Source of the DNA: an uncultured Gammaproteobacteria bacterium
GTDB taxonomy: Bacteria > Pseudomonadota > Gammaproteobacteria > Eutrophobiales > Eutrophobiaceae
Reading direction: 5' to 3'
Assembly (NCBI GenBank): GCA_958295485.1
Contig: OY282354.1
Coordinates: forward strand, 2,812,042 to 2,876,041
Length of the DNA stretch: 64,000 nucleotides
Shown: positions 46,525-54,107 of the stretch, piece by piece
Layout: the number at the start of each line of letters is the position of its first letter
Position numbering within the stretch: the stretch's first letter is position 1
Translations under genes and position numbers: made by a program
The notes under the pieces: model-generated
Databases searched by the model: none
The model's input: only the letters and a program-made list of their open reading frames with translations
What the model was told of the DNA's origin: nothing

Positions 46525-47562
46525 TTATCCTCCCTTGTCAGGGGAGAAATTGCGCAAGCTGTCCGTTATCTGGGCCATAACGGATATGGCTATTTCAGCT
46601 GGTGACTGGGCGCCGATATCGAGACCAATCGGCGCATCGAGGCGGGCGATCTCAGCCTGTTTGAATCCGGCCCGCTCCAATCGTTTTACCCTTGCGGCCT
46701 GGGTTTTCCTGCTGCCCAACGCGCCGATATAAAATGCCTGGGACCGCAGGGCAACGTTCAGGGCCGGGTCGTCCAATTTCGGATCATGGGTCAATGTAGT
46801 TATCGCCGTTCGGCTGTCTATGCCCAAATTCGTCAAAGCGACATCGGGCCAATCCCTGTTGATTGTCACGCCGGGAAAGCGCTCCTCACTGGCGAACGCC
46901 TGTCTCGGATCAACCATGATGACTTCATAGCCACAGGACAGGGCGCTGGCCGCCAGGTATTGACCTATATGCACGGCGCCGATGATGATCAACCTTAACG
47001 GCGGGTTAAACGGCTGTATGAAATAATCCTGTCCCTGAAATTGTCGATGGAAACACCGGTCATTCGTCAAGGCGTTCACGGCACAGTCATGCAGTTCGGC
47101 GTCCTGGGCGGTTACATGAAGGCCGGGATTCATCACGTAGCTATCATGGGTATCCAGATTTCTTATCAATACGCATGGTTTGTTTTCCCCAAGATAACCG
47201 TTTATTTGCTCCAATAACGCTCTTCGCGGGAGCTGGTCCGGCTCAATCGACTCAACGTAGACTTTGATCTGCCCGCCGCAGGCCAAGCCGACTTCCCAGG
47301 CCATATCGTTGGTGACGCCAAATTCCAGCATACGCGGTTGTCTGGTCTTTATCACGTCAAGCGCTTCACTGATGACCGCGGTTTCGACGCAACCCCCGGA
47401 AACGGAACCTTCAAAGTGGGACCCTGTGTCCACCACCAACTGACTCCCCCTTGGACACGGCGCCGACCCCCAGGTTTCGACCACGGTGGCAAGGGCGATA
47501 TTGCGGCCTTCTTCAAGCCAGCGATTCGCCGTCGTAATGATGTCTTCTGTTGCCATGCTCAC
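46525..47562 (-). CDS. XdhC/CoxI-family molybdoenzyme maturation protein
   Basis: The GSVSGGC...E block and the second Rossmann-like half (IIIGAVHIGQ) are typical of XdhC. Confidence 0.7.
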   Translation of the reverse strand: MSMATEDIITTANRWLEEGRNIALATVVETWGSAPCPRGSQLVVDTGSHFEGSVSGGCVETAVISEALDVIKTRQPRMLEFGVTNDMAWEVGLACGGQIKVYVESIEPDQLPRRALLEQINGYLGENKPCVLIRNLDTHDSYVMNPGLHVTAQDAELHDCAVNALTNDRCFHRQFQGQDYFIQPFNPPLRLIIIGAVHIGQYLAASALSCGYEVIMVDPRQAFASEERFPGVTINRDWPDVALTNLGIDSRTAITTLTHDPKLDDPALNVALRSQAFYIGALGSRKTQAARVKRLERAGFKQAEIARLDAPIGLDIGAQSPAEIAISVMAQITDSLRNFSPDKGG

Positions 47563-47785
47563 TTTTCCACTATAACGTTATTGCAGGGACTGGTTTCAAA
47601 CCCGTCCCTGCTGGAAGGAGGACGTCGTAAAAGCCCCGGCGGCGCCACCGACGCTGACCCACTGGGACAAGCTCCGTGGTTGCCCCTGCGGGATTAATGT
47701 CTCCGGTCATTTCGGAGACAGTTTACTTAATTCTTCGTAATTAAGTAAACTGTCCCCCCCAATTGGAATTATTCAAGGGTATAAC

Positions 47786-49078
47786 ATGTCCAAGCTGAAA
47801 TATCCTGGTTTTGATACTTTGAGCCTGCACGGCGGGCAACAGCCAGACCCCGTCACCGGCGCCCGCGCGGCGCCCATTTATCAAACAACGTCTTTTGTAT
47901 TCAAGGAAACAGATCACGCATCTTCAATGTTCGACCTGGCGAGATCCGGTCACGTGTACTCGCGCATCTCCAACCCGACCGTCGCCGTCCTGGAAGAACG
48001 CATTGCCGGGCTGGAAGGAGGAGTCGGGGCCGTGGCAACGGCAAGCGGCATGGCTGCAATCCACCTGGCTGTATGCACAATCATGGACGGCGGCAGCCAC
48101 ATCGTCTCATCACGCGCCTTGTACGGCGGCACCCATAACCTGTTTACCTATACCTTGCCCCGCTTCGGGATCCATGCCACTTTCGTGGACCCGGGAAATC
48201 CGGCGGAATTCAAACGCGCGATCACGCCTGAAACCAGGTTAATTTACGCCGAGACCATAGGCAATCCCCGTTGTGAAGTGTTGGACATCGAGACGGTCGC
48301 CAGGATAGCCCATGAGGCGGAAATTCCACTGATGTTGGACTCGACCCTGACCACGCCTTACCTGTTGAAGCCCTTCGACCACGGCGCCGACCTCGTCATC
48401 CATTCCCTCACCAAGTTTATCGGCGGCCACGGCGTCGCCATCGGCGGCATGGTGGTGGACTCCGGCAAGTTCAATTGGGACGACTCCGGCAAGTTCAAGA
48501 CACTGACGGAACCTTACGAGGGGATATTGAACATCGACTTTGCCGAAGATTTCGGCCCCGGCGCCTTCCTCCATCGGGCGCGGCGTGAAGGACTGAGAGA
48601 TTTCGGCGCCGCCTTGAGTCCCACCAATGCGTTTTATATCCTGCAAGGCGCTGAAACACTTTCAGTAAGGATGGATAAACATGTATCCAACACGAAAAAA
48701 ATCGTCGAGCGCCTTGACGGCAATGAAGCCGTCGAATACGTTACCTACCCGGAACTGCCCTCTCACCAGGATTACGATCTGGCGAAAAAACTGCTGCCGA
48801 AAGGCTGCGGTTCGGTATTCAGTTTTGAATTGAAAGGCGGACGTGAAGCGGGACGAAAATTCATTGAATCGCTGAAGGTCTTTTCTCATCTCGCCAACGT
48901 CGGCGATGCCAAATCCCTGGTGATACACCCGGCCTCAACTACCCATAGCCGCATGGATGACAAGGCATTAAAAGAGGCCGGCATTACCGAAGGCCTGGTC
49001 AGGCTGTCCGTCGGCATGGAAGACCCGGAAGACCTGATCAACGATTTGAACCGGGCGCTTTATCAATCCCAAAAATGA
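47786..49078 (+). CDS. metY: O-acetylhomoserine sulfhydrylase (aminocarboxypropyltransferase)
   Basis: GFDTLSLHGGQ start and IYQTTSFVF, HSLTKFIGGHG (PLP lysine) blocks. 430 aa. Confidence 0.9.
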   Translation: MSKLKYPGFDTLSLHGGQQPDPVTGARAAPIYQTTSFVFKETDHASSMFDLARSGHVYSRISNPTVAVLEERIAGLEGGVGAVATASGMAAIHLAVCTIMDGGSHIVSSRALYGGTHNLFTYTLPRFGIHATFVDPGNPAEFKRAITPETRLIYAETIGNPRCEVLDIETVARIAHEAEIPLMLDSTLTTPYLLKPFDHGADLVIHSLTKFIGGHGVAIGGMVVDSGKFNWDDSGKFKTLTEPYEGILNIDFAEDFGPGAFLHRARREGLRDFGAALSPTNAFYILQGAETLSVRMDKHVSNTKKIVERLDGNEAVEYVTYPELPSHQDYDLAKKLLPKGCGSVFSFELKGGREAGRKFIESLKVFSHLANVGDAKSLVIHPASTTHSRMDDKALKEAGITEGLVRLSVGMEDPEDLINDLNRALYQSQK

Positions 49079-49115
49079 GAATGCCGCAAAAGCGCATTAT
49101 ATTTCCCCCTCCCCT

Positions 49116-49919
49116 ATGGAAATCAAGATAAATAACGACGTGGCCTTTGCCGCCACCGGCACGAAAGCCTTTGACCCCGACCTGCCGAGCATCGTCTTCA
49201 TTCACGGGGCCGGCCTGGACCACACGGCTTGGACCTTGTTCAACCGTTACTATGCCAGACATGAATTCAATTCAATCGCTGTTGACCTGCCCGGCCACAA
49301 TCGCTCGGGCGGGAAACCATTGGCGTCCATCGAAGAAATTGCCCGGTGGCTAATCGAATACATAAAGACCCTGGAAATAGAAAAGACCGCATTGGTAGGC
49401 CACAGCATGGGCTCACTTGTCGCATTGGAAGCGGCTTATCAAGCCGGAGAAACTGTTGATAAACTTGTCTTGCTGGGCACGGCGGTACCGATGTTGGTAG
49501 GTGAACCCTTATTGAATGCCGCAAAAGAAAACGACCACAGCGCCGTTGACATGATCATGTTGTATTCGCATTCTTACGCATCTCAAACAGGCGGAAATCC
49601 TGTAGCGGGCATTAACATAGTAAACAGCAACATGCGATTATTGGAACGTTCACTGAAAAACGTTTTATATACCGACCTTAACGCCTGCCATGAATACAAG
49701 AATGGAATCGAGGCCGCGAGAAGTATTGCCATACCGGTGAACCTGATTTCAGGGGAAGAAGACAAGATGACGCCACCTGCAATGGCGGCTGATCTCATTA
49801 ATGCGCTGGTAAAGGCGGAGGTCGATATCCTGCCCCATTGCGGTCACATGATGTTGTCCGAACAACCGGAAGCCGTGCACCGGTCATTGGTGAAAATATT
49901 GAGGGGAAATAATGGTTAA
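49116..49919 (+). CDS. alpha/beta-hydrolase fold protein
   Basis: IVFIHGAG, GHSMGS nucleophile elbow and C-terminal HCGHMM. 267 aa, so too short for MetX. Confidence 0.75.
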   Translation: MEIKINNDVAFAATGTKAFDPDLPSIVFIHGAGLDHTAWTLFNRYYARHEFNSIAVDLPGHNRSGGKPLASIEEIARWLIEYIKTLEIEKTALVGHSMGSLVALEAAYQAGETVDKLVLLGTAVPMLVGEPLLNAAKENDHSAVDMIMLYSHSYASQTGGNPVAGINIVNSNMRLLERSLKNVLYTDLNACHEYKNGIEAARSIAIPVNLISGEEDKMTPPAMAADLINALVKAEVDILPHCGHMMLSEQPEAVHRSLVKILRGNNG

Positions 49920-50811
49920 GCGACTGAATCAATTAGAGAATTCCCTCAATTCAGGAAGATTTTGTTTCACTGCGGAATTGGTGCCGCCGTTATCGACCGA
50001 ACCGGACAGGATACTTGAACAGGTAGATTCGATTAAAGGTCGAGTTGAAGCGATCAACGTCACCGACGCCGCCGCTGCCAAGACCACCATGTCCAGTTGT
50101 GCCGCGGCCGCCCTGCTCGCCCTCAATAATATAGAACCGGTCCTTCAACTTACTTGCCGGGACCGCAATCGTATCGCTTTATGCGCGGATTTAATCGGCT
50201 CAGCCGCATTCGGCATATGCAACCTGTTGCTGTTAACCGGGGATGACCCGGCTAACGGCGACCAACCTGACGCCAAGGCAGTCCATGATATTAACAGCGC
50301 CAGCTTGACCGCCCTTGTCAGGGATATGGGGGAGAAAGGAATATTGCCGAATGGCCGCCAAATTGATTCGCCACCGCATTTTTATATCGGTTCGGCAGAC
50401 GTGCCGCAAAGGTTCGATAATAAAGGGGTCCCTCCTGCCATAATAAAAAAAATAGACGCGGGCGCGCGTTTTATACAGACTCAGTTGTGTTATGACATTG
50501 ACCTGATCGAAGCATACATTGCTGCATTGGGTGATTGGGGCATCCTGGACAAGGTGAAAGTGCTTATCGGCCTGGGGCCTGTGGCGTCCGTCCGGTCGGC
50601 CCTATGGATGAAAGATAATCTTTGGGGCGTGGCAATCCCTGATTCTGTCCTGCAACGTTTGCAAGACAGTACTGATCCGAAACAGGAGGGCAGACGGATT
50701 TGCATCGAATTGATTGAGAACATGCAAAAGATAGACGGCATAGCCGGGGCGCACCTGATGGCGCCGGGCCAATCTATTCCATCGATTGCGGCTTTATTAT
50801 CAGAACTTTGA
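49912..50811 (+). CDS. methylenetetrahydrofolate reductase family protein (MetF-like)
   Basis: FCFTAELVPP and LQLTCRDRN...LLLLTGDDP blocks parallel the FEFFPP / HLTC / ALRGDPP blocks of MetF. Confidence 0.65.
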   Translation: MVKRLNQLENSLNSGRFCFTAELVPPLSTEPDRILEQVDSIKGRVEAINVTDAAAAKTTMSSCAAAALLALNNIEPVLQLTCRDRNRIALCADLIGSAAFGICNLLLLTGDDPANGDQPDAKAVHDINSASLTALVRDMGEKGILPNGRQIDSPPHFYIGSADVPQRFDNKGVPPAIIKKIDAGARFIQTQLCYDIDLIEAYIAALGDWGILDKVKVLIGLGPVASVRSALWMKDNLWGVAIPDSVLQRLQDSTDPKQEGRRICIELIENMQKIDGIAGAHLMAPGQSIPSIAALLSEL

Positions 50812-51034
50812 CAACCCCCCCCTCCAGGCAGGAAAGACTGGCCCCTTTGGGACGGGATACTGACATGGACTTCGACTTTGACACCTCCTCCAGGCAAGAA
50901 GGGCTGGTCCTGTGGTTGTTCTGCCCCCGGTACGCGCCGGCGCGCTCAGGGCTGGCGCGGGGCCTGCCCCTGCCTGGTCGGGGGGCTTGCAAGGTTCTGT
51001 ACCCCATCCTGTTTTAGCTGTATAATCTCGCTCC

Positions 51035-51541
51035 ATGAAAAAACTCGGTGTAATTATAGTCGTGCTGTGCCTGTCAATCACACCGGCGCTCGCTGACTTT
51101 AACGATGGCGTTTATGCTTATTCGATTGGTGAATATCGCAGGGCGTATAACACCATGCGGTCACTGGCTGAAACTTCCGACCATGGCCTGGCTCAATACT
51201 ATTTGGCCATGATGTACTTCAGGGGAAATGGGGCAGAGCAAAGTTACGAAGAGGCGGCGAAATGGTTTCGAAAAGCGGCGGAACAACGAGTCAAACAGGC
51301 CCAATACCAGTTAGGGGAGTTTTATATGAACGGCAGGGGTCTGCCAAGAGATTATGAGTACGCCTATGCCTGGTATCGGGTGGGCGCTGAACACAAGCAT
51401 AAAAAATCAATAGACGCGTTAGATGCGGCAAAATCGAACCTTTCGGATGAGGAACTGAAAGAAGCAGAGAAACTCTCGCGGGAATTTATAAAGAAATTCG
51501 GCCCGTTGCCTGACCAACCTGAAAAAAACATCGGCCCTTAA
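51035..51541 (+). CDS. Sel1-repeat (TPR-like) secreted protein
   Basis: Signal peptide, then repeated A.YYLA.MYF.G.G...EA.KWFRKAAEQ Sel1 modules. Confidence 0.8.
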   Translation: MKKLGVIIVVLCLSITPALADFNDGVYAYSIGEYRRAYNTMRSLAETSDHGLAQYYLAMMYFRGNGAEQSYEEAAKWFRKAAEQRVKQAQYQLGEFYMNGRGLPRDYEYAYAWYRVGAEHKHKKSIDALDAAKSNLSDEELKEAEKLSREFIKKFGPLPDQPEKNIGP

Positions 51542-51855
51542 TCCGGGAGAAACGGAGAGTATCGTGCCGTCAACCGGGAGGATTTGGGGGCTGTTTTTCC
51601 GTTCCGCGCAAAGTCTCTCCAAAACAGCCCCCAAATCCTCTCTCAGCCCGGTGGCTTTACAAGCATGAGCTTGCCTTGGCAAACGCGGCCTTTTCCGGAA
51701 AGTGGGAAATCCGGGAGAAATAGAGAATATCGTGCCGTCAACCGGGGGGATTTGCGGGCTGTTTTTCCGTTCCGCGCAAAGTCTCTCCAAAACAGCCCGC
51801 AAATCCCCCCTCGGCCCGGTCGGCTTTACAAACGTGGTCTTGCCTTGGTCAAACT
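51541..51855. repeat. two tandem about 168-bp repeat units, each containing an 18-bp-stem hairpin (GGATTTGGGGGCTGTTTT...AAAACAGCCCCCAAATCC)
   Basis: Unit 1 is 51541-51708 and unit 2 is 51709 to about 51855. The hairpins are at 51580-51638 and about 51748-51806. Unit 2 carries a compensatory G/C to C/G change in the stem. Confidence 0.8.
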
Positions 51856-51870
51856 ATCAGGGTAAATGCA

Positions 51871-52497
51871 TCAAAAATCAAAGACCTGGCCCCTTGCGCT
51901 TTGAAGATCTTCAGGCCGATCAATATCACGCCGCCTGACTAATTCATACGACTTTAATTTCAATTGCGCAACCCTCTCCCGGGTTTTTTCCAAAACCCTG
52001 TCTGTTCCCCACTCGATATTGATGAATAGTTGTCGATATGATTTTGTCAGTCCAATTAAATAATATCCGCCGTCATAAGCCGGACCTAAAACGACATCAC
52101 AGCCGTTTATTAATTTTTCCAAGGCAAGTTCAAGGTCAAACTCGCTCAATTCAATGCAGTCACTCCCGATGAGCAATACACCGTTATAACTTCGCAAGGC
52201 CTGCTCAATGGCAAAACACATGCGTTCTCCTAAATCACCGCCGGCCTGGGTTTTAAGCGTAATCGAAAAATTTTCAGCATGGGCGGCCAATACTTGATGC
52301 TCAGTGGTAGGCGTACACCATAACTCTATATGCTTGATGGACGACCGTTTGGCGGTTTCAATCGTCTGTTTTAATAATTCAGTATGGATTTCAACCGCCC
52401 CGGCCTCACCTGTTATCGGTATAAGGCGGGTTTTTACCTTTCCCGGAATGGGTGTCCTGGTAAATATAAGCAATACCACCTCTTTTTTAACCCGCAT
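51871..52497 (-). CDS. DUF2064-type glycosyltransferase-A-fold protein (TIGR04282-like)
   Basis: VVLLIFTRTPIPGKVKTRL N-terminus recalled from the DUF2064 family. Paired with the downstream GT2. Confidence 0.55.
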   Translation of the reverse strand: MRVKKEVVLLIFTRTPIPGKVKTRLIPITGEAGAVEIHTELLKQTIETAKRSSIKHIELWCTPTTEHQVLAAHAENFSITLKTQAGGDLGERMCFAIEQALRSYNGVLLIGSDCIELSEFDLELALEKLINGCDVVLGPAYDGGYYLIGLTKSYRQLFINIEWGTDRVLEKTRERVAQLKLKSYELVRRRDIDRPEDLQSARGQVFDF

Positions 52498-52602
52498 ATA
52501 GGGTACGCCCCGGTTTTGCAGGGATTAAATTCGACGTGGAAAGAAGTCGGTTGCTGTCATATGTCCGGCCTCTGTGTGGGGTGTATTTGCGAGATATGCG
52601 GG

Positions 52603-53277
52603 TTAATCATACTGATCGGCCAAAACCCGCGGGTCAAACCCGATGGCATAGCATAATCTTAATTTCCACATCGTCAGGATTGTCCTGATTATTCCATGCT
52701 TTTCCCATCGGCGGGATGAGCTGGTGACCGTTTTATCAACGCAAACAGGCGGAGAAATTCTTTTAAGCCTTGACGTCAAGTCTATGTCTTCCATTAATGG
52801 AATATCTGCATATCCATCGACTTCCCGAAAAATACGCTGGCCGACAAAAACAGCCTGGTCGCCCGTGGCGATGCCGGTGATGCGGGAACGGATGTTCATG
52901 AGCCTTTCGATACACCTGTACATCGGGTGTTCACCTGACAACTTGATATTAAACCGTCCCCAGGCGTCTCCTGAGATAGGCGGATTATCCAGTATCTTAT
53001 CAAAATCACTATCTAACAAAGTATCGGCATGAAGAAAAACATAAACGTCTCCGGTAGCGATTTCCGCGCCATAATTCATCTGCCTGGCCCGGCCCGGCCC
53101 GCATTTTAAAACATGATCTACATGGTCTGCCGCTATCCCGCGCGTATCGTCAATACTGCCGCCATCCACAAGGATGACCTCATGGCCCCTGCCGCGCGCG
53201 GCCTGAAGGCGCTCCAGGGTTTTGCTTATGTAACCCGCTTCATTCAGGGCGGGTATTATGACCGAGTACTTTTGCAT
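52603..53277 (-). CDS. GT2-family glycosyltransferase
   Basis: YSVIIPALNEAGYISKTLERL, ILVDGGSIDDT and DAD (DxD) motifs. Confidence 0.75.
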   Translation of the reverse strand: MQKYSVIIPALNEAGYISKTLERLQAARGRGHEVILVDGGSIDDTRGIAADHVDHVLKCGPGRARQMNYGAEIATGDVYVFLHADTLLDSDFDKILDNPPISGDAWGRFNIKLSGEHPMYRCIERLMNIRSRITGIATGDQAVFVGQRIFREVDGYADIPLMEDIDLTSRLKRISPPVCVDKTVTSSSRRWEKHGIIRTILTMWKLRLCYAIGFDPRVLADQYD

Positions 53278-53439
53278 AAGGATAATGAACGGCTGGTTTA
53301 ATATGACATATAGTCAAGCCGCCTCGAAAGTTTACCTGCTTGATGCGATTTTGTCCCATGGCTGAGGGCTGCTATCCCACGGGCAGCGTTCCGGTTTAGC
53401 GCATTATAAGACAAACCCGGGGTCAAGACCCATGAGGCA

Positions 53440-53580
53440 AGGACAGCGGTTCCCGCTAACAGTGGGTTTGGGGGCTGTTTTGGAGTGACTAACGTCAGGG
53501 ATGAGCATGGGATGGGCTATGGAACGGAAAAGCAGCCACCAAACCCGCTTTCGACGAACAGCGGGAACTCTTGGGGTAAG
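53440..53580. repeat. third, diverged copy of the hairpin element (GGGTTTGGGGGCTGTTTT...AAAAGCAGCCACCAAACCC) within a long imperfect palindrome
   Basis: Seen in sequence. The flanking arms CAGCGGTTCCCGCT / AGCGGGAACTC are also partly complementary. About 150 bp upstream of tRNA-Arg. Confidence 0.6.
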
Positions 53581-53731
53581 GACAGATATTCCCTATCGGC
53601 CAAGTCCGCAGGGGCAATGAAGCAATCTCCTGCCTTTCCGGCTTCGCCGATAAGGTATTGATGCCAACGATATATCCCTGTATTGTTGGATGATGTTTTC
53701 AAGATTGTCTACAGATAGCCTTTATAGCTAC

Positions 53732-53808
53732 GCCCTGATAGCTCAGATGGATAGAGCGTCCGCCTCCTAAGCGGAAGGTCAGAGGTTCGAATCCTCTTCA
53801 GGGCGCCA
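53732..53808 (+). tRNA. tRNA-Arg (anticodon CCU)
   Basis: GCCCTGATAGCTCAGATGGATAGAGCGTCCGCCTCCTAAGCGGAAGGTCAGAGGTTCGAATCCTCTTCAGGGCGCCA folds as a cloverleaf with anticodon loop CUCCUAA. Confidence 0.9.
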
Positions 53809-53969
53809 TTTACCACCCCTTTACACTCCCATCCTCTCGTGATAAACTCTTGTAAGTGGTTATTTTGACTGATATTATGTCTCTCATACGCTATTATTCA
53901 TTTCTAATCGTTATCAGACACTCTCATTTTTAGCGTGGGGAAAAACGTGGGAAAAATGAGAGTTGAGCC

Positions 53970-54107
53970 ATGAAAAAAGCCATCACCGCCGCCGAAGCGA
54001 AATCCATCACGAATCCCAGCTCTTATTATGCCGGCGAGACCCTGTACCTGTCTATTGCGCCCGGCGGCTCGAAATCCTGGGTGCAGCGCCTCACTATTTG
54101 TTCTTAA
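53970..54107 (+). pseudogene. N-terminal 45-codon remnant of a P4-type tyrosine integrase (arm-binding DUF4102-like domain)
   Basis: It translates to MKKAITAAEAKSITNPSSYYAGETLYLSIAPGGSKSWVQRLTICS*. The pattern (K..Y.L.DG.GLYL.V.P.GSK.W..R) is the start of tRNA-associated integrases. It lies 160 bp 3' of tRNA-Arg in an AT-rich stretch. Confidence 0.55.

What the first reader, a model, noticed from the sequence alone, without database searches (positions are those of the whole stretch)
51541..53580. Family of structured hairpin repeats with a compensatory stem mutation: candidate small-RNA/MITE-like element
- Two tandem about 168-bp units (51541-51855) each contain an 18-bp perfect stem GGATTTGGGGGCTGTTTT/AAAACAGCCCCCAAATCC with a 23-nt loop.
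- The second unit has GCGGG on one arm and CCCGC on the other, a compensatory change that preserves pairing. This indicates selection on the structure, as RNA or as a cruciform.
- A third, diverged copy with the same arms sits at 53464-53546 inside a larger imperfect palindrome in the 450-bp non-coding stretch upstream of tRNA-Arg.

The elements lie between convergent or flanking genes and near a tRNA-linked island remnant. This is typical for REP/MITE-like mobile repeats or sRNA genes.
Basis: seen in the sequence. Interest (0 to 1): 0.5.

Follow-up and report, generated by a model that had tools for sequence, protein, structure and literature searches.

The report
Relics of a mobile hairpin element
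The three hairpins are worn-down copies of a small (about 130-150 bp) palindromic DNA element that has inserted at different intergenic sites in a few uncultured gammaproteobacteria; its intact form resembles the TwoAYGGAY RNA motif, a suspected decoy for the regulator CsrA, so this is a new family of a known kind and not a new kind of system.

Summary
There is a 168-bp tandem repeat (51540-51854, 1.9 copies) with two perfect 20/22-bp hairpins. Two stem positions differ between the units and are compensated. A third copy lies at 53447-53577 in inverted orientation.

Related DNA shows what these are: degenerate copies of a low-copy, MITE-like insertion element.
- Intact copies in two Gammaproteobacteria MAGs and one metagenome contig are 137-147 bp.
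- Four copies, including window copy 3, are flanked by 8-10-bp direct repeats.
- They sit at non-orthologous sites in different genomes.
- One is a roughly 150-bp insertion into an rpoS-DUF498 spacer that is 11-52 nt long in four relatives.

The intact element is a long closing stem (12 of 21 pairs covary) around a conserved 63-66-nt core. The core holds two small hairpins with CA(N)GGAU loops. This is the architecture of Rfam TwoAYGGAY (Csr-Rsm clan). It matches only below threshold (21-28 bits against 43).

The window copies have lost part of this core (copy 3) or all of it (tandem units).

In a 97-99% identical sister strain both 'compensatory' pairs are half-done mismatches. No promoters or terminators accompany the copies, so they are not independent sRNA genes.

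Verdict: new member of a known kind, moderate interest.

The parts
51540..51707 (+). Tandem unit 1 (168 bp): internally deleted element copy (about 51559-51670) plus about 56 bp of duplicated flank. It starts at the stop codon of the Sel1-like gene.
   Evidence: TRF; the repeat finder D1/D3; ends inferred by alignment to L004.
51708..51854 (+). Tandem unit 2 (partial, 147 bp), 92% identical to unit 1 over 113 nt.
51576..51642 (.). Hairpin 1: 22-pair stem (20 perfect pairs, then one G.T and one further G:C pair) with a 23-nt loop (51598-51620). It is the closing stem (P1) of the element with the core deleted.
51744..51810 (.). Hairpin 2: 22-bp perfect stem and 23-nt loop. It carries the two compensated pairs (51747/51807 and 51755/51799).
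53447..53577 (+). Copy 3: 131-bp element, opposite in orientation to units 1 and 2 (its GGA-rich strand is the window + strand; theirs is the - strand). Outer stem 53449-53457/53560-53568. Inner stem 53464-53481/53529-53546. The 47-nt core (53482-53528) keeps UCAGGGAUGA (53495-53504) and a distorted second GGA hairpin (53505-53517).
53439..53446 (.). Left flanking direct repeat AAGGACAG (candidate target-site duplication).
   Evidence: Weak on its own (p=0.12), but it lies in the same position as the 9-10-bp repeats of L002, L004 and L023.
53578..53585 (.). Right flanking direct repeat AAGGACAG.
51035..51541 (+). Context: Sel1-repeat protein gene, convergent with the glycosyltransferase operon. 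The array fills the spacer between them.
51871..53277 (-). Context: TIGR04282 and TIGR04283 glycosyltransferase genes lying between the array and copy 3.
53732..53808 (+). Context: tRNA-Arg(CCT), 154 nt downstream of copy 3.

Best explanation
The hairpins are three copies of one family of small, non-coding, palindromic insertion elements (MITE-like).

The intact element:
- It is 137-147 bp long.
- It has two imperfect inverted arms of about 30-35 bp (consensus ..AGCAGTTCCCGCTAACAGAGGGTTTGGGGGCTGTTTT).
- The arms fold into a long closing stem around a conserved, asymmetric 63-66-nt core.
- On its GGA-rich strand the core forms two small hairpins with CA(N)GGAU loops, plus further GGA motifs.

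Shown:
- The family exists outside this window.
- It sits at different intergenic sites in different genomes.
- It is absent from orthologous sites in relatives.
- Four copies, including window copy 3, are bounded by 8-10-bp direct repeats.

Inferred: it was inserted by a transposase supplied in trans that makes 8-10-bp staggered cuts. No partner IS was found.

In this window the copies are decaying.
- Copy 3 has lost about 13 nt of the second core hairpin.
- A copy that lost the whole two-hairpin core (leaving a 23-nt loop) was then duplicated in tandem together with about 56 bp of flank. This gave the 168-bp array.

The compensated stem positions reflect maintenance of the palindrome. The likely mechanism is gene conversion between the tandem units and/or hairpin-templated repair, possibly helped by selection for a stable hairpin in read-through transcripts. 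A sister strain shows the single-sided intermediates.

Any present role of the window copies is most likely passive: stable hairpins in the 3' ends or leaders of neighbouring transcripts.
For: Distribution:
- The invariant 19-mer core occurs in only two species representatives (out of 185,579 species), with 2 copies each. The other 21 hits are chance, at about 17 expected (my own estimate from pattern length and database size).
- One metagenome copy has the same core but unrelated, perfectly paired arms.
- The covariance model found a further copy at L025:383-495.

Insertion:
- Flanking direct repeats: L002 10 bp (p=0.011), L023 10 bp (p=0.0075), L004 9 bp (p=0.03), copy 3 8 bp (p=0.12). All lie 30-46 nt from the core.
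- Empty sites: the rpoS-DUF498 spacer is 166 nt with the element in L025, against 11-52 nt in L032-L035 with the same synteny.
- L038 has no element at the rlmB site.
- L030 has no array between Sel1 and DUF2064.
- Copies do not cluster by genome: L002 is 88% identical to copy 3 but 82% to L025a from its own genome.

Structure:
- P1 helix: 21 pairs, 12 with changes on both sides, 97% of cells paired, 0 of 500 shuffles reach this.

Micro-evolution:
- Sister strain L031 (97-98.6% identical flanks) has a C.C and an A.C mismatch exactly at the two 'compensated' pairs. Its two left arms are identical.

Not an independent gene:
- No promoter- or terminator-like sites lie on either strand next to the copies.
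Against: - No autonomous IS with matching terminal repeats was seen. The outer-arm motif occurs only inside the copies.
- The very ends of the element are poorly conserved, and two copies (L025a, L027) have no detectable flanking repeat (L025b has only a weak 6-bp one).
- Copy number is low for a MITE: at least 2-3 per genome (the 19-mer found 2 in each of the two MAGs, and the covariance model added a third in one).
- In L027 the arms have diverged completely while the core is conserved. This is the opposite of what transposase-bound terminal repeats should do. It points to constraint on the core sequence and on pairing, that is, to some RNA-level or ssDNA-level function.
- Whole genomes could not be scanned with the covariance model.
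Confidence: 0.62

Rival explanations
1. A CsrA/RsmA-binding structured RNA (TwoAYGGAY-type). When the GGA-rich strand is transcribed, the long stem presents two CA(N)GGAU hairpins 22 nt apart, plus 3-4 further GGA motifs. These bind a CsrA dimer and act as a decoy or as a cis-regulatory CsrA site. This is compatible with mobility for the intact family. As an explanation of the window copies, it would require that they still function this way.
For: [quoted passage not shown] The hits are full-length, always on the GGA-rich strand, and score 21-28.1 bits.
- The architecture matches the published description: two AYGGAY terminal loops and a P1 that is 'often very large, e.g. 24 bp'.
- Gardner & Eldai proposed that TwoAYGGAY sequesters CsrA (PMC4333381).
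- The core has 6-7 GGA against 0-1 UCC. Two CA.GGA[UC] motifs have p of about 0.001 against shuffles.
- The N of CA(N)GGAU varies (G/A/U) while the rest is fixed.
- The core is conserved where the arms are not (L027).
Against: - All hits are below the gathering score of 43, and eukaryotic miRNA hairpin models score similarly, so part of the score is just the long stem.
- Window copy 3 gives no hit.
- Units 1 and 2 lack both hairpins.
- There are no promoters or terminators. Convergent spacers are filled by the element. In L002 the GGA strand is antisense to both neighbouring genes.
- The wobble-pair strand test gives 6 against 2, which is not significant.
- No csrA gene was seen in the sequences held.
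- CsrA binding is untested even for TwoAYGGAY itself.
Confidence: 0.2
2. REP/BIME-type repetitive extragenic palindromes mobilised by a RAYT (TnpA-REP) transposase.
For: Intergenic, palindromic and sometimes tandem, as REP clusters are.
Against: - The units are 110-147 bp with 20-35-bp arms, not 20-40-nt palindromes.
- There is no conserved GTAG-like head.
- Flanking direct repeats are present, whereas the HUH/Y1 (RAYT-type) mechanism proposed for REP mobilisation is not expected to leave target duplications (from established knowledge).
- Only a few copies per genome.
Confidence: 0.03
3. Host-evolved transcription terminators or 3'-end stabilisers for the convergent genes, and not mobile DNA.
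For: - Four loci place the element between convergent genes.
- No other terminator-like site exists in the 330-nt Sel1/DUF2064 spacer.
- The hairpins are very stable (-58 to -70 kcal/mol, z of about -3.5).
Against: - No U-tract follows the stems on either strand.
- Copies also lie in divergent promoter regions (copy 3, L004, L025b).
- Relatives manage with spacers of 11-52 nt.
- Flanking direct repeats are present.
- At best this is a secondary, exapted role.
Confidence: 0.1

Closest known systems
TwoAYGGAY RNA motif (Rfam RF01731; Weinberg et al. 2010, PMC2864571; proposed CsrA-binding sRNA, Gardner & Eldai 2015, PMC4333381)
   Same: - A long, near-perfect closing stem (P1) encloses two short hairpins whose terminal loops carry A-N-GGA-U.
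- It is found in Gammaproteobacteria.
- It has several copies per genome: at least five in Psychromonas ingrahamii in the published alignment.
- It has no consistent gene association.
- It is the only bacterial Rfam family that intact copies hit, always on the same strand.
   Different: - Scores of 21-28 bits are below the curated cut-off of 43.
- Loops are mostly AGGGAU or AAGGAU (ARGGAU), not AYGGAY. Only L027 has AUGGAU.
- The hairpin stems are shorter.
- The window copies have lost one hairpin in part (copy 3) or both hairpins (units 1 and 2).
- Insertion signatures (flanking repeats, empty sites) are shown here. They are not mentioned in the TwoAYGGAY papers I read.
Bacterial MITEs and palindromic intergenic repeats (for example Correia/NEMIS elements of Neisseria, ERIC/IRU of enterobacteria; from established knowledge)
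   Same: - About 100-150 bp and non-coding.
- Long terminal inverted repeats that fold into a hairpin when transcribed.
- Intergenic insertion with target-site duplication.
- Presence/absence between relatives, and internal-deletion variants.
   Different: - Very low copy number.
- The duplication is 8-10 bp and variable (Correia: TA).
- The terminal nucleotides are poorly conserved.
- The internal core is better conserved than the arms in the most distant copy.
- No partner transposase has been identified.
Csr/Rsm sponge sRNAs (CsrB, CsrC, RsmX/Y/Z)
   Same: Several GGA motifs are presented in hairpin loops. One intact copy lies immediately downstream of rpoS, as rsmZ does in Pseudomonas (the latter from memory).
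   Different: - No Rfam match to any of these families.
- No own promoter, GacA/UvrY box or terminator.
- The rpoS-linked copy is a lineage-specific insertion absent from four relatives, so the synteny is coincidental.

Membership tests
TwoAYGGAY (RF01731) | Covariance-model score at or above Rfam's gathering score (43 bits) | tested here: not met
   Intact relatives score 28.1, 27.2, 23.9, 22.0 and 21.0 bits. Window copy 3 and units 1 and 2 give no hit at E<=10.
TwoAYGGAY (RF01731) | Two hairpins with AYGGAY terminal loops | tested here: inconclusive
   Intact copies have two CA(N)GGAU hairpins, but N is mostly a purine. Only L027 has AUGGAU. In the window, copy 3 keeps one and a distorted second. 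Units 1 and 2 keep none.
TwoAYGGAY (RF01731) | Large closing P1 stem (about 24 bp with few mismatches) | tested here: met
   A 21-pair helix is 97% paired across 8 copies, and 12 pairs covary. The window stems are 20-22 bp and perfect.
MITE (non-autonomous DNA transposon) | Terminal inverted repeats, small size, no coding capacity | tested here: met
   Arms of about 30-35 bp, elements of 131-147 bp, and no conserved ORF (the start codon is not conserved among copies).
MITE (non-autonomous DNA transposon) | Target-site duplication flanking the element | tested here: met
   Direct repeats of 10, 10, 9 and 8 bp lie at equivalent positions in L002, L023, L004 and copy 3 (p=0.011, 0.0075, 0.03, 0.12). 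None is found in L025a or L027, and L025b has only 6 bp.
MITE (non-autonomous DNA transposon) | Presence/absence at orthologous sites | tested here: met
   rpoS-DUF498 spacer: occupied in L025, empty in L032-L035. rlmB 3' site: occupied in L002, L036 and L037, empty in L038. Sel1-DUF2064 spacer: occupied in the window and L031, not in L029/L030.
MITE (non-autonomous DNA transposon) | Cognate autonomous IS sharing the terminal repeats | not tested
There the outer-arm motif occurs only within the copies.
REP / RAYT system | Imperfect palindromes of 20-40 nt with a conserved GTAG-type head, in high copy number | tested here: not met
   The element is 110-147 bp, has no GTAG head, and has 2-3 copies per genome by 19-mer and covariance-model search.
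REP / RAYT system | RAYT (Y1 transposase) gene associated with the repeats | not tested
   Only the genes next to the copies were profiled. None is a transposase.
Csr/Rsm sponge sRNA gene | Independent transcription unit (promoter with GacA/UvrY box, intrinsic terminator) | tested here: not met
   No promoter-like or terminator-like site lies on the GGA strand next to any copy. Convergent spacers of 166-186 nt are filled by the element.
Csr/Rsm sponge sRNA gene | Binds CsrA/RsmA | not testable with these tools
   Only motif resemblance is available.
Intrinsic terminator | GC-rich stem followed by a U-tract | tested here: not met
   The scan finds none at the hairpins, and the sequence after the stems is not T-rich.

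The most novel reading that the evidence does not exclude
TwoAYGGAY-type RNAs are carried by a transposable, hairpin-shaped module. The intact element would be a mobile cassette that plants a pair of high-affinity CsrA/RsmA binding hairpins, held out on a long stem, into 3' UTRs and leaders. This would disperse CsrA decoys or CsrA control points around the genome. The window would then hold three inactivated relics. The core conserved over diverged arms (L027) and the strand-consistent Rfam hits would be the trace of that RNA-level function.
Probability: 0.2. Interest if true: 0.7.

Novelty: new member of a known kind. Interest (0 to 1): 0.4.

Why it matters
- It turns an unexplained 'structured repeat with a compensatory mutation' into a documented case of a small palindromic insertion element caught in decay: internal deletions and a tandem duplication.
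- A sister strain shows that the apparent compensatory substitutions are polymorphic half-steps. This is a caution against reading stem compensation in tandem palindromes as proof of RNA-level selection.
- It links an orphan Rfam motif of unknown function (TwoAYGGAY, a candidate CsrA decoy) to insertion signatures. If confirmed, that would bear on how Csr/Rsm-binding RNAs arise and spread.
- It marks these hairpins as likely false positives for sRNA or miRNA-like hairpin predictors. Several eukaryotic miRNA models hit them weakly.

Tried and rejected
- Rfam at gathering thresholds over the whole window found only three tRNAs. At E<=10 over 51400-53750 it found only spurious eukaryotic miRNA and snoRNA models.
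- The exact-protein look-up for the Sel1 gene, P0001, P0002 and P0258 returned nothing.
- Viral contigs, plasmids and phages gave no match, so there is no sign of a phage or plasmid origin.
- rsmZ-like synteny downstream of rpoS: rejected, because the copy is an insertion absent from four relatives.
- 'Copy 3 is under strong purifying selection' (0 differences from L031 over 53398-54098): rejected. The identical block also covers the integrase 5' fragment, and other blocks of several hundred bp with no differences exist, so this is a recombination mosaic.
- Strand assignment from G.U against A.C mismatches: 6 against 2, not significant.
- Promoters seen by eye (TTGCCA/TTGACC-17/18-TAAAGC on the minus strand of the array; TATAAG upstream of copy 3) were not confirmed by the scan.
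- A peptide in the core: the ATG of L002 is not conserved in other copies.
- ISAs1-family partner (8-10-bp duplications, CAGGG ends): recalled from memory only, and the literature search gave nothing usable.
- Taxonomy beyond 'uncultured Gammaproteobacteria': the cluster look-up returned no names.
Full report
**1. Observation**

The region holds one tandem array (51540-51854, period 168, 1.9 copies, 89% matches). It has two perfect inverted repeats, 51578-51597/51621-51640 (20 bp) and 51744-51765/51789-51810 (22 bp), each with a 23-nt loop. The 18-nt arm occurs six times in the 64-kb window at up to 3 mismatches, against 0.08 expected, and all six are the arms of three hairpins.

Units 1 and 2 differ at 9 of 113 aligned positions. 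Five of these lie in the stem:
- 51579/51639 A:T becomes 51747/51807 G:C.
- 51587/51631 G:C becomes 51755/51799 C:G.
- 51641 T becomes C at 51809, which turns a G.T into G:C.

The third copy (arms 53464-53481/53529-53546, 16 of 18 paired) is real but inverted relative to the array. It has a 47-nt loop that begins and ends with the same loop sequences as units 1 and 2, and it sits inside an outer 9-bp stem (53449-53457/53560-53568).

**2. Context**

The array fills the 330-nt spacer between a Sel1-repeat gene (+, stop at 51541) and the convergent TIGR04282/TIGR04283 glycosyltransferase pair (-). Copy 3 lies between the start of that operon (53277) and tRNA-Arg(CCT) (53732-53808, +). No Rfam family reaches threshold anywhere near. 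No sigma-70-like promoter or intrinsic terminator is predicted at the hairpins on either strand.

**3. Relatives elsewhere**

- The 19-mer CTCCAAAACAGCCCNCAAA is invariant in the three window copies. A scan of one genome for each of 185,579 species gave 25 hits. Twenty-one are unrelated, at about 17 expected by chance (my own estimate from pattern length and database size). Four are true homologues, two in each of two Gammaproteobacteria MAGs: OZ242169.1 (L002, L025) and OZ252091.1 (L004, L023).
- A gapped pattern on the metagenome collection gave one more (L027). It has the same core but completely different, perfectly complementary arms: CTGGACGGATGCTGTTTT/AAAACAGCATCCGTCCAG.
- A covariance model built from the eight copies found a further diverged copy at L025:383-495 and nothing else in about 154 kb of related loci.
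- There was no match in viral contigs, plasmids or phages.

All of these relatives carry a 63-66-nt core where units 1 and 2 have 23 nt and copy 3 has 47. The window copies are internal-deletion derivatives.

**4. It is (or was) mobile**

*Flanking repeats.* Four copies are bounded by direct repeats at equivalent positions 30-46 nt outside the core:

| Copy | Repeat | Length | p |
|---|---|---|---|
| L002 | GACAGATTTA | 10 bp | 0.011 |
| L023 | GGGCCGGTTA | 10 bp | 0.0075 |
| L004 | GTTTGACAG | 9 bp | 0.03 |
| Copy 3 | AAGGACAG (53439-53446 and 53578-53585) | 8 bp | 0.12 |

These bounds give elements of 131-147 bp.

*Empty sites.*
- The surE-pcm-nlpD-rpoS / DUF498 / adk neighbourhood is conserved in four relatives (RpoS 77-88% identical). 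Their convergent rpoS-DUF498 spacer is 11-52 nt. In L025 it is 166 nt, and the extra roughly 150 bp is the element. It is inserted within a small hairpin, GCTGCAGGGTTTTTGCAGC, that is still intact in L034 and L035.
- The genome that carries L004 and L023 lacks the element both at that site (L033) and downstream of rlmB (L038). The L002 lineage has it downstream of rlmB, including two 96%-RlmB relatives with identical flanking repeats.
- A relative with 75%-identical TIGR04283 protein has a 66-codon ORF, not the array, between Sel1 and DUF2064.

*Phylogeny of copies.* Copies do not group by genome. L002 is 88% identical to window copy 3 but 82% to L025a from its own genome.

*Insertion contexts.* They are convergent (units 1 and 2, L023, L025a, L027), tandem (L002) and divergent (copy 3, L004, L025b).

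Together this is the signature of a non-autonomous insertion element. I did not find a partner transposase or solitary terminal repeats, and the outermost nucleotides are poorly conserved. The mobilisation mechanism is therefore inferred, not shown.

**5. Structure and the closest known family**

The closing helix is strongly supported. It has 21 pairs, 12 with changes on both sides, and 97% of cells paired. None of 500 shuffles reaches this, and it is far above all slid controls.

On the strand complementary to TTTTCCGTTCC... the core is GGA-rich, with 6-7 GGA against 0-1 UCC. It folds into two small hairpins with loops CAGGGAUG, CAAGGAUG or CAUGGAUG about 22 nt apart. Two CA.GGA[UC] motifs have p of about 0.001 against composition-matched shuffles.

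With permissive thresholds, all five intact copies tested hit a single bacterial Rfam family, TwoAYGGAY (RF01731). The hits are full-length, on that strand, and score 21.0-28.1 bits against a gathering score of 43. [quoted passage not shown]

What the literature says about TwoAYGGAY:
- Its discoverers describe two terminal AYGGAY loops closed by a P1 that is 'often very large (e.g., 24 base pairs...)'. It is found in Clostridia, gamma-proteobacteria and gut metagenomes (PMC2864571 supplement).
- Their alignment holds at least five copies from Psychromonas ingrahamii.
- Gardner & Eldai proposed that it sequesters CsrA (PMC4333381).

So the intact element has the TwoAYGGAY architecture but fails the curated membership threshold. 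Part of the score is generic long-hairpin signal, since eukaryotic miRNA models score similarly. Window copy 3 gives no hit, and units 1 and 2 lack both hairpins.

**6. Are they RNA genes?**

Probably not as independent genes.
- No promoter-like site lies upstream on the GGA strand of any copy, and there are no terminators.
- The convergent spacers are almost entirely element.
- In L002 the GGA strand is antisense to both neighbours.
- A strand test based on mismatches that would be G.U on one strand and A.C on the other gives 6 against 2 in favour of the GGA strand, which is not significant.

What argues for some RNA- or ssDNA-level constraint is L027. Its arms are unrelated in sequence yet perfectly paired, while the core is conserved.

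**7. The 'compensatory mutation'**

A sister strain is available (L031, ena:ERZ19489113 contig s842.ptg001013l; flanks 97-98.6% identical). It has the same array, but unit 1 reads GCGGG/CCCCC (a C.C mismatch) and unit 2 reads GGGAGG/CCCCCC (an A.C mismatch). Its two left arms are identical to each other. Both compensated pairs of the window are thus single-sided in a natural relative.

Either the L031 lineage homogenised the left arms by gene conversion between the tandem units, or the window lineage repaired two mismatches using the opposite arm as template. Both are DNA-level recombination processes. Selection on a hairpin is possible but not required.

The array diverges faster (about 6%) than its flanks. 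The zero-difference block 53398-54098 around copy 3 also covers an integrase fragment and so reflects recombination mosaicism, not constraint.

**8. Verdict**

The finding is a genuine, non-chance repeat family. The best-supported reading is three decaying copies of a low-copy, lineage-restricted, MITE-like palindromic element. Its intact form is TwoAYGGAY-like.

For the window itself the elements are most likely relics that, at most, provide stable hairpins to neighbouring transcripts. The most interesting open possibility is that the intact family is a mobile carrier of CsrA-binding hairpins. That needs transcript and binding data.

Noticed in passing
window 50812-50943: There is a 66-bp tandem duplication (two copies, 81% identical over 27 nt by the repeat finder D4) in the MTHFR-Sel1 spacer. 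The sister strain L031 has a single copy, so this spacer also carries a recent tandem duplication or indel polymorphism.
   Followed up: partly
window 53809-54100 versus L031:3127-4308: Downstream of tRNA-Arg(CCT) the window keeps only the first roughly 128 nt of a tyrosine-integrase gene; identity with L031 ends at 54098. In L031 the integrase is intact (393 aa) and is followed by an IS3-like pair (HTH_Tnp_1 + rve). A tRNA-linked island has been deleted or replaced in the window strain.
   Followed up: partly
window 47534-54098 versus L031: Divergence between the two strains is mosaic. Stretches of several hundred bp with no differences (49200-49799, 53398-54098) alternate with stretches at 3-6%. 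This suggests frequent homologous recombination within the population.
   Followed up: partly
window 53664-53699 (+): A terminator-like hairpin (CCAACGATATATCCCTGTATTGTTGG followed by ATGATGTTTT) lies 33 nt upstream of tRNA-Arg. No convincing sigma-70 promoter was seen for the tRNA between it and the gene.
   Followed up: no
L004:958-966 and 1107-1115: The 9-bp flanking repeat of this copy (GTTTGACAG on the minus strand) contains the TTGACA -35 hexamer of a predicted yceD-rpmF promoter. The insertion duplicated a -35 box within a divergent promoter region (maf / yceD).
   Followed up: no
L025:383-495: In this copy the loop-proximal stem is extended by 5 bp (GTTTGTCCG/CGGACAAAC). The extension sequesters the first GGA motif and part of the last ones. 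The two CAGGGA hairpins are unchanged.
   Followed up: no
PMC2864571 supplement, TwoAYGGAY.sto (Psychromonas ingrahamii NC_008709.1): The published TwoAYGGAY copies from P. ingrahamii occur in at least five places, some within a few kb of each other. They are embedded in flanks that are themselves repeated. This suggests that the Rfam family is also part of a dispersed repeat.
   Followed up: no
L002:5350-5600 (minus strand): The spacer between the element and the acyl-CoA dehydrogenase-like gene contains a small ORF. By position it corresponds to the 78-aa CDGSH zinc-finger gene called in L038. It was not in my 90-aa ORF list.
   Followed up: no
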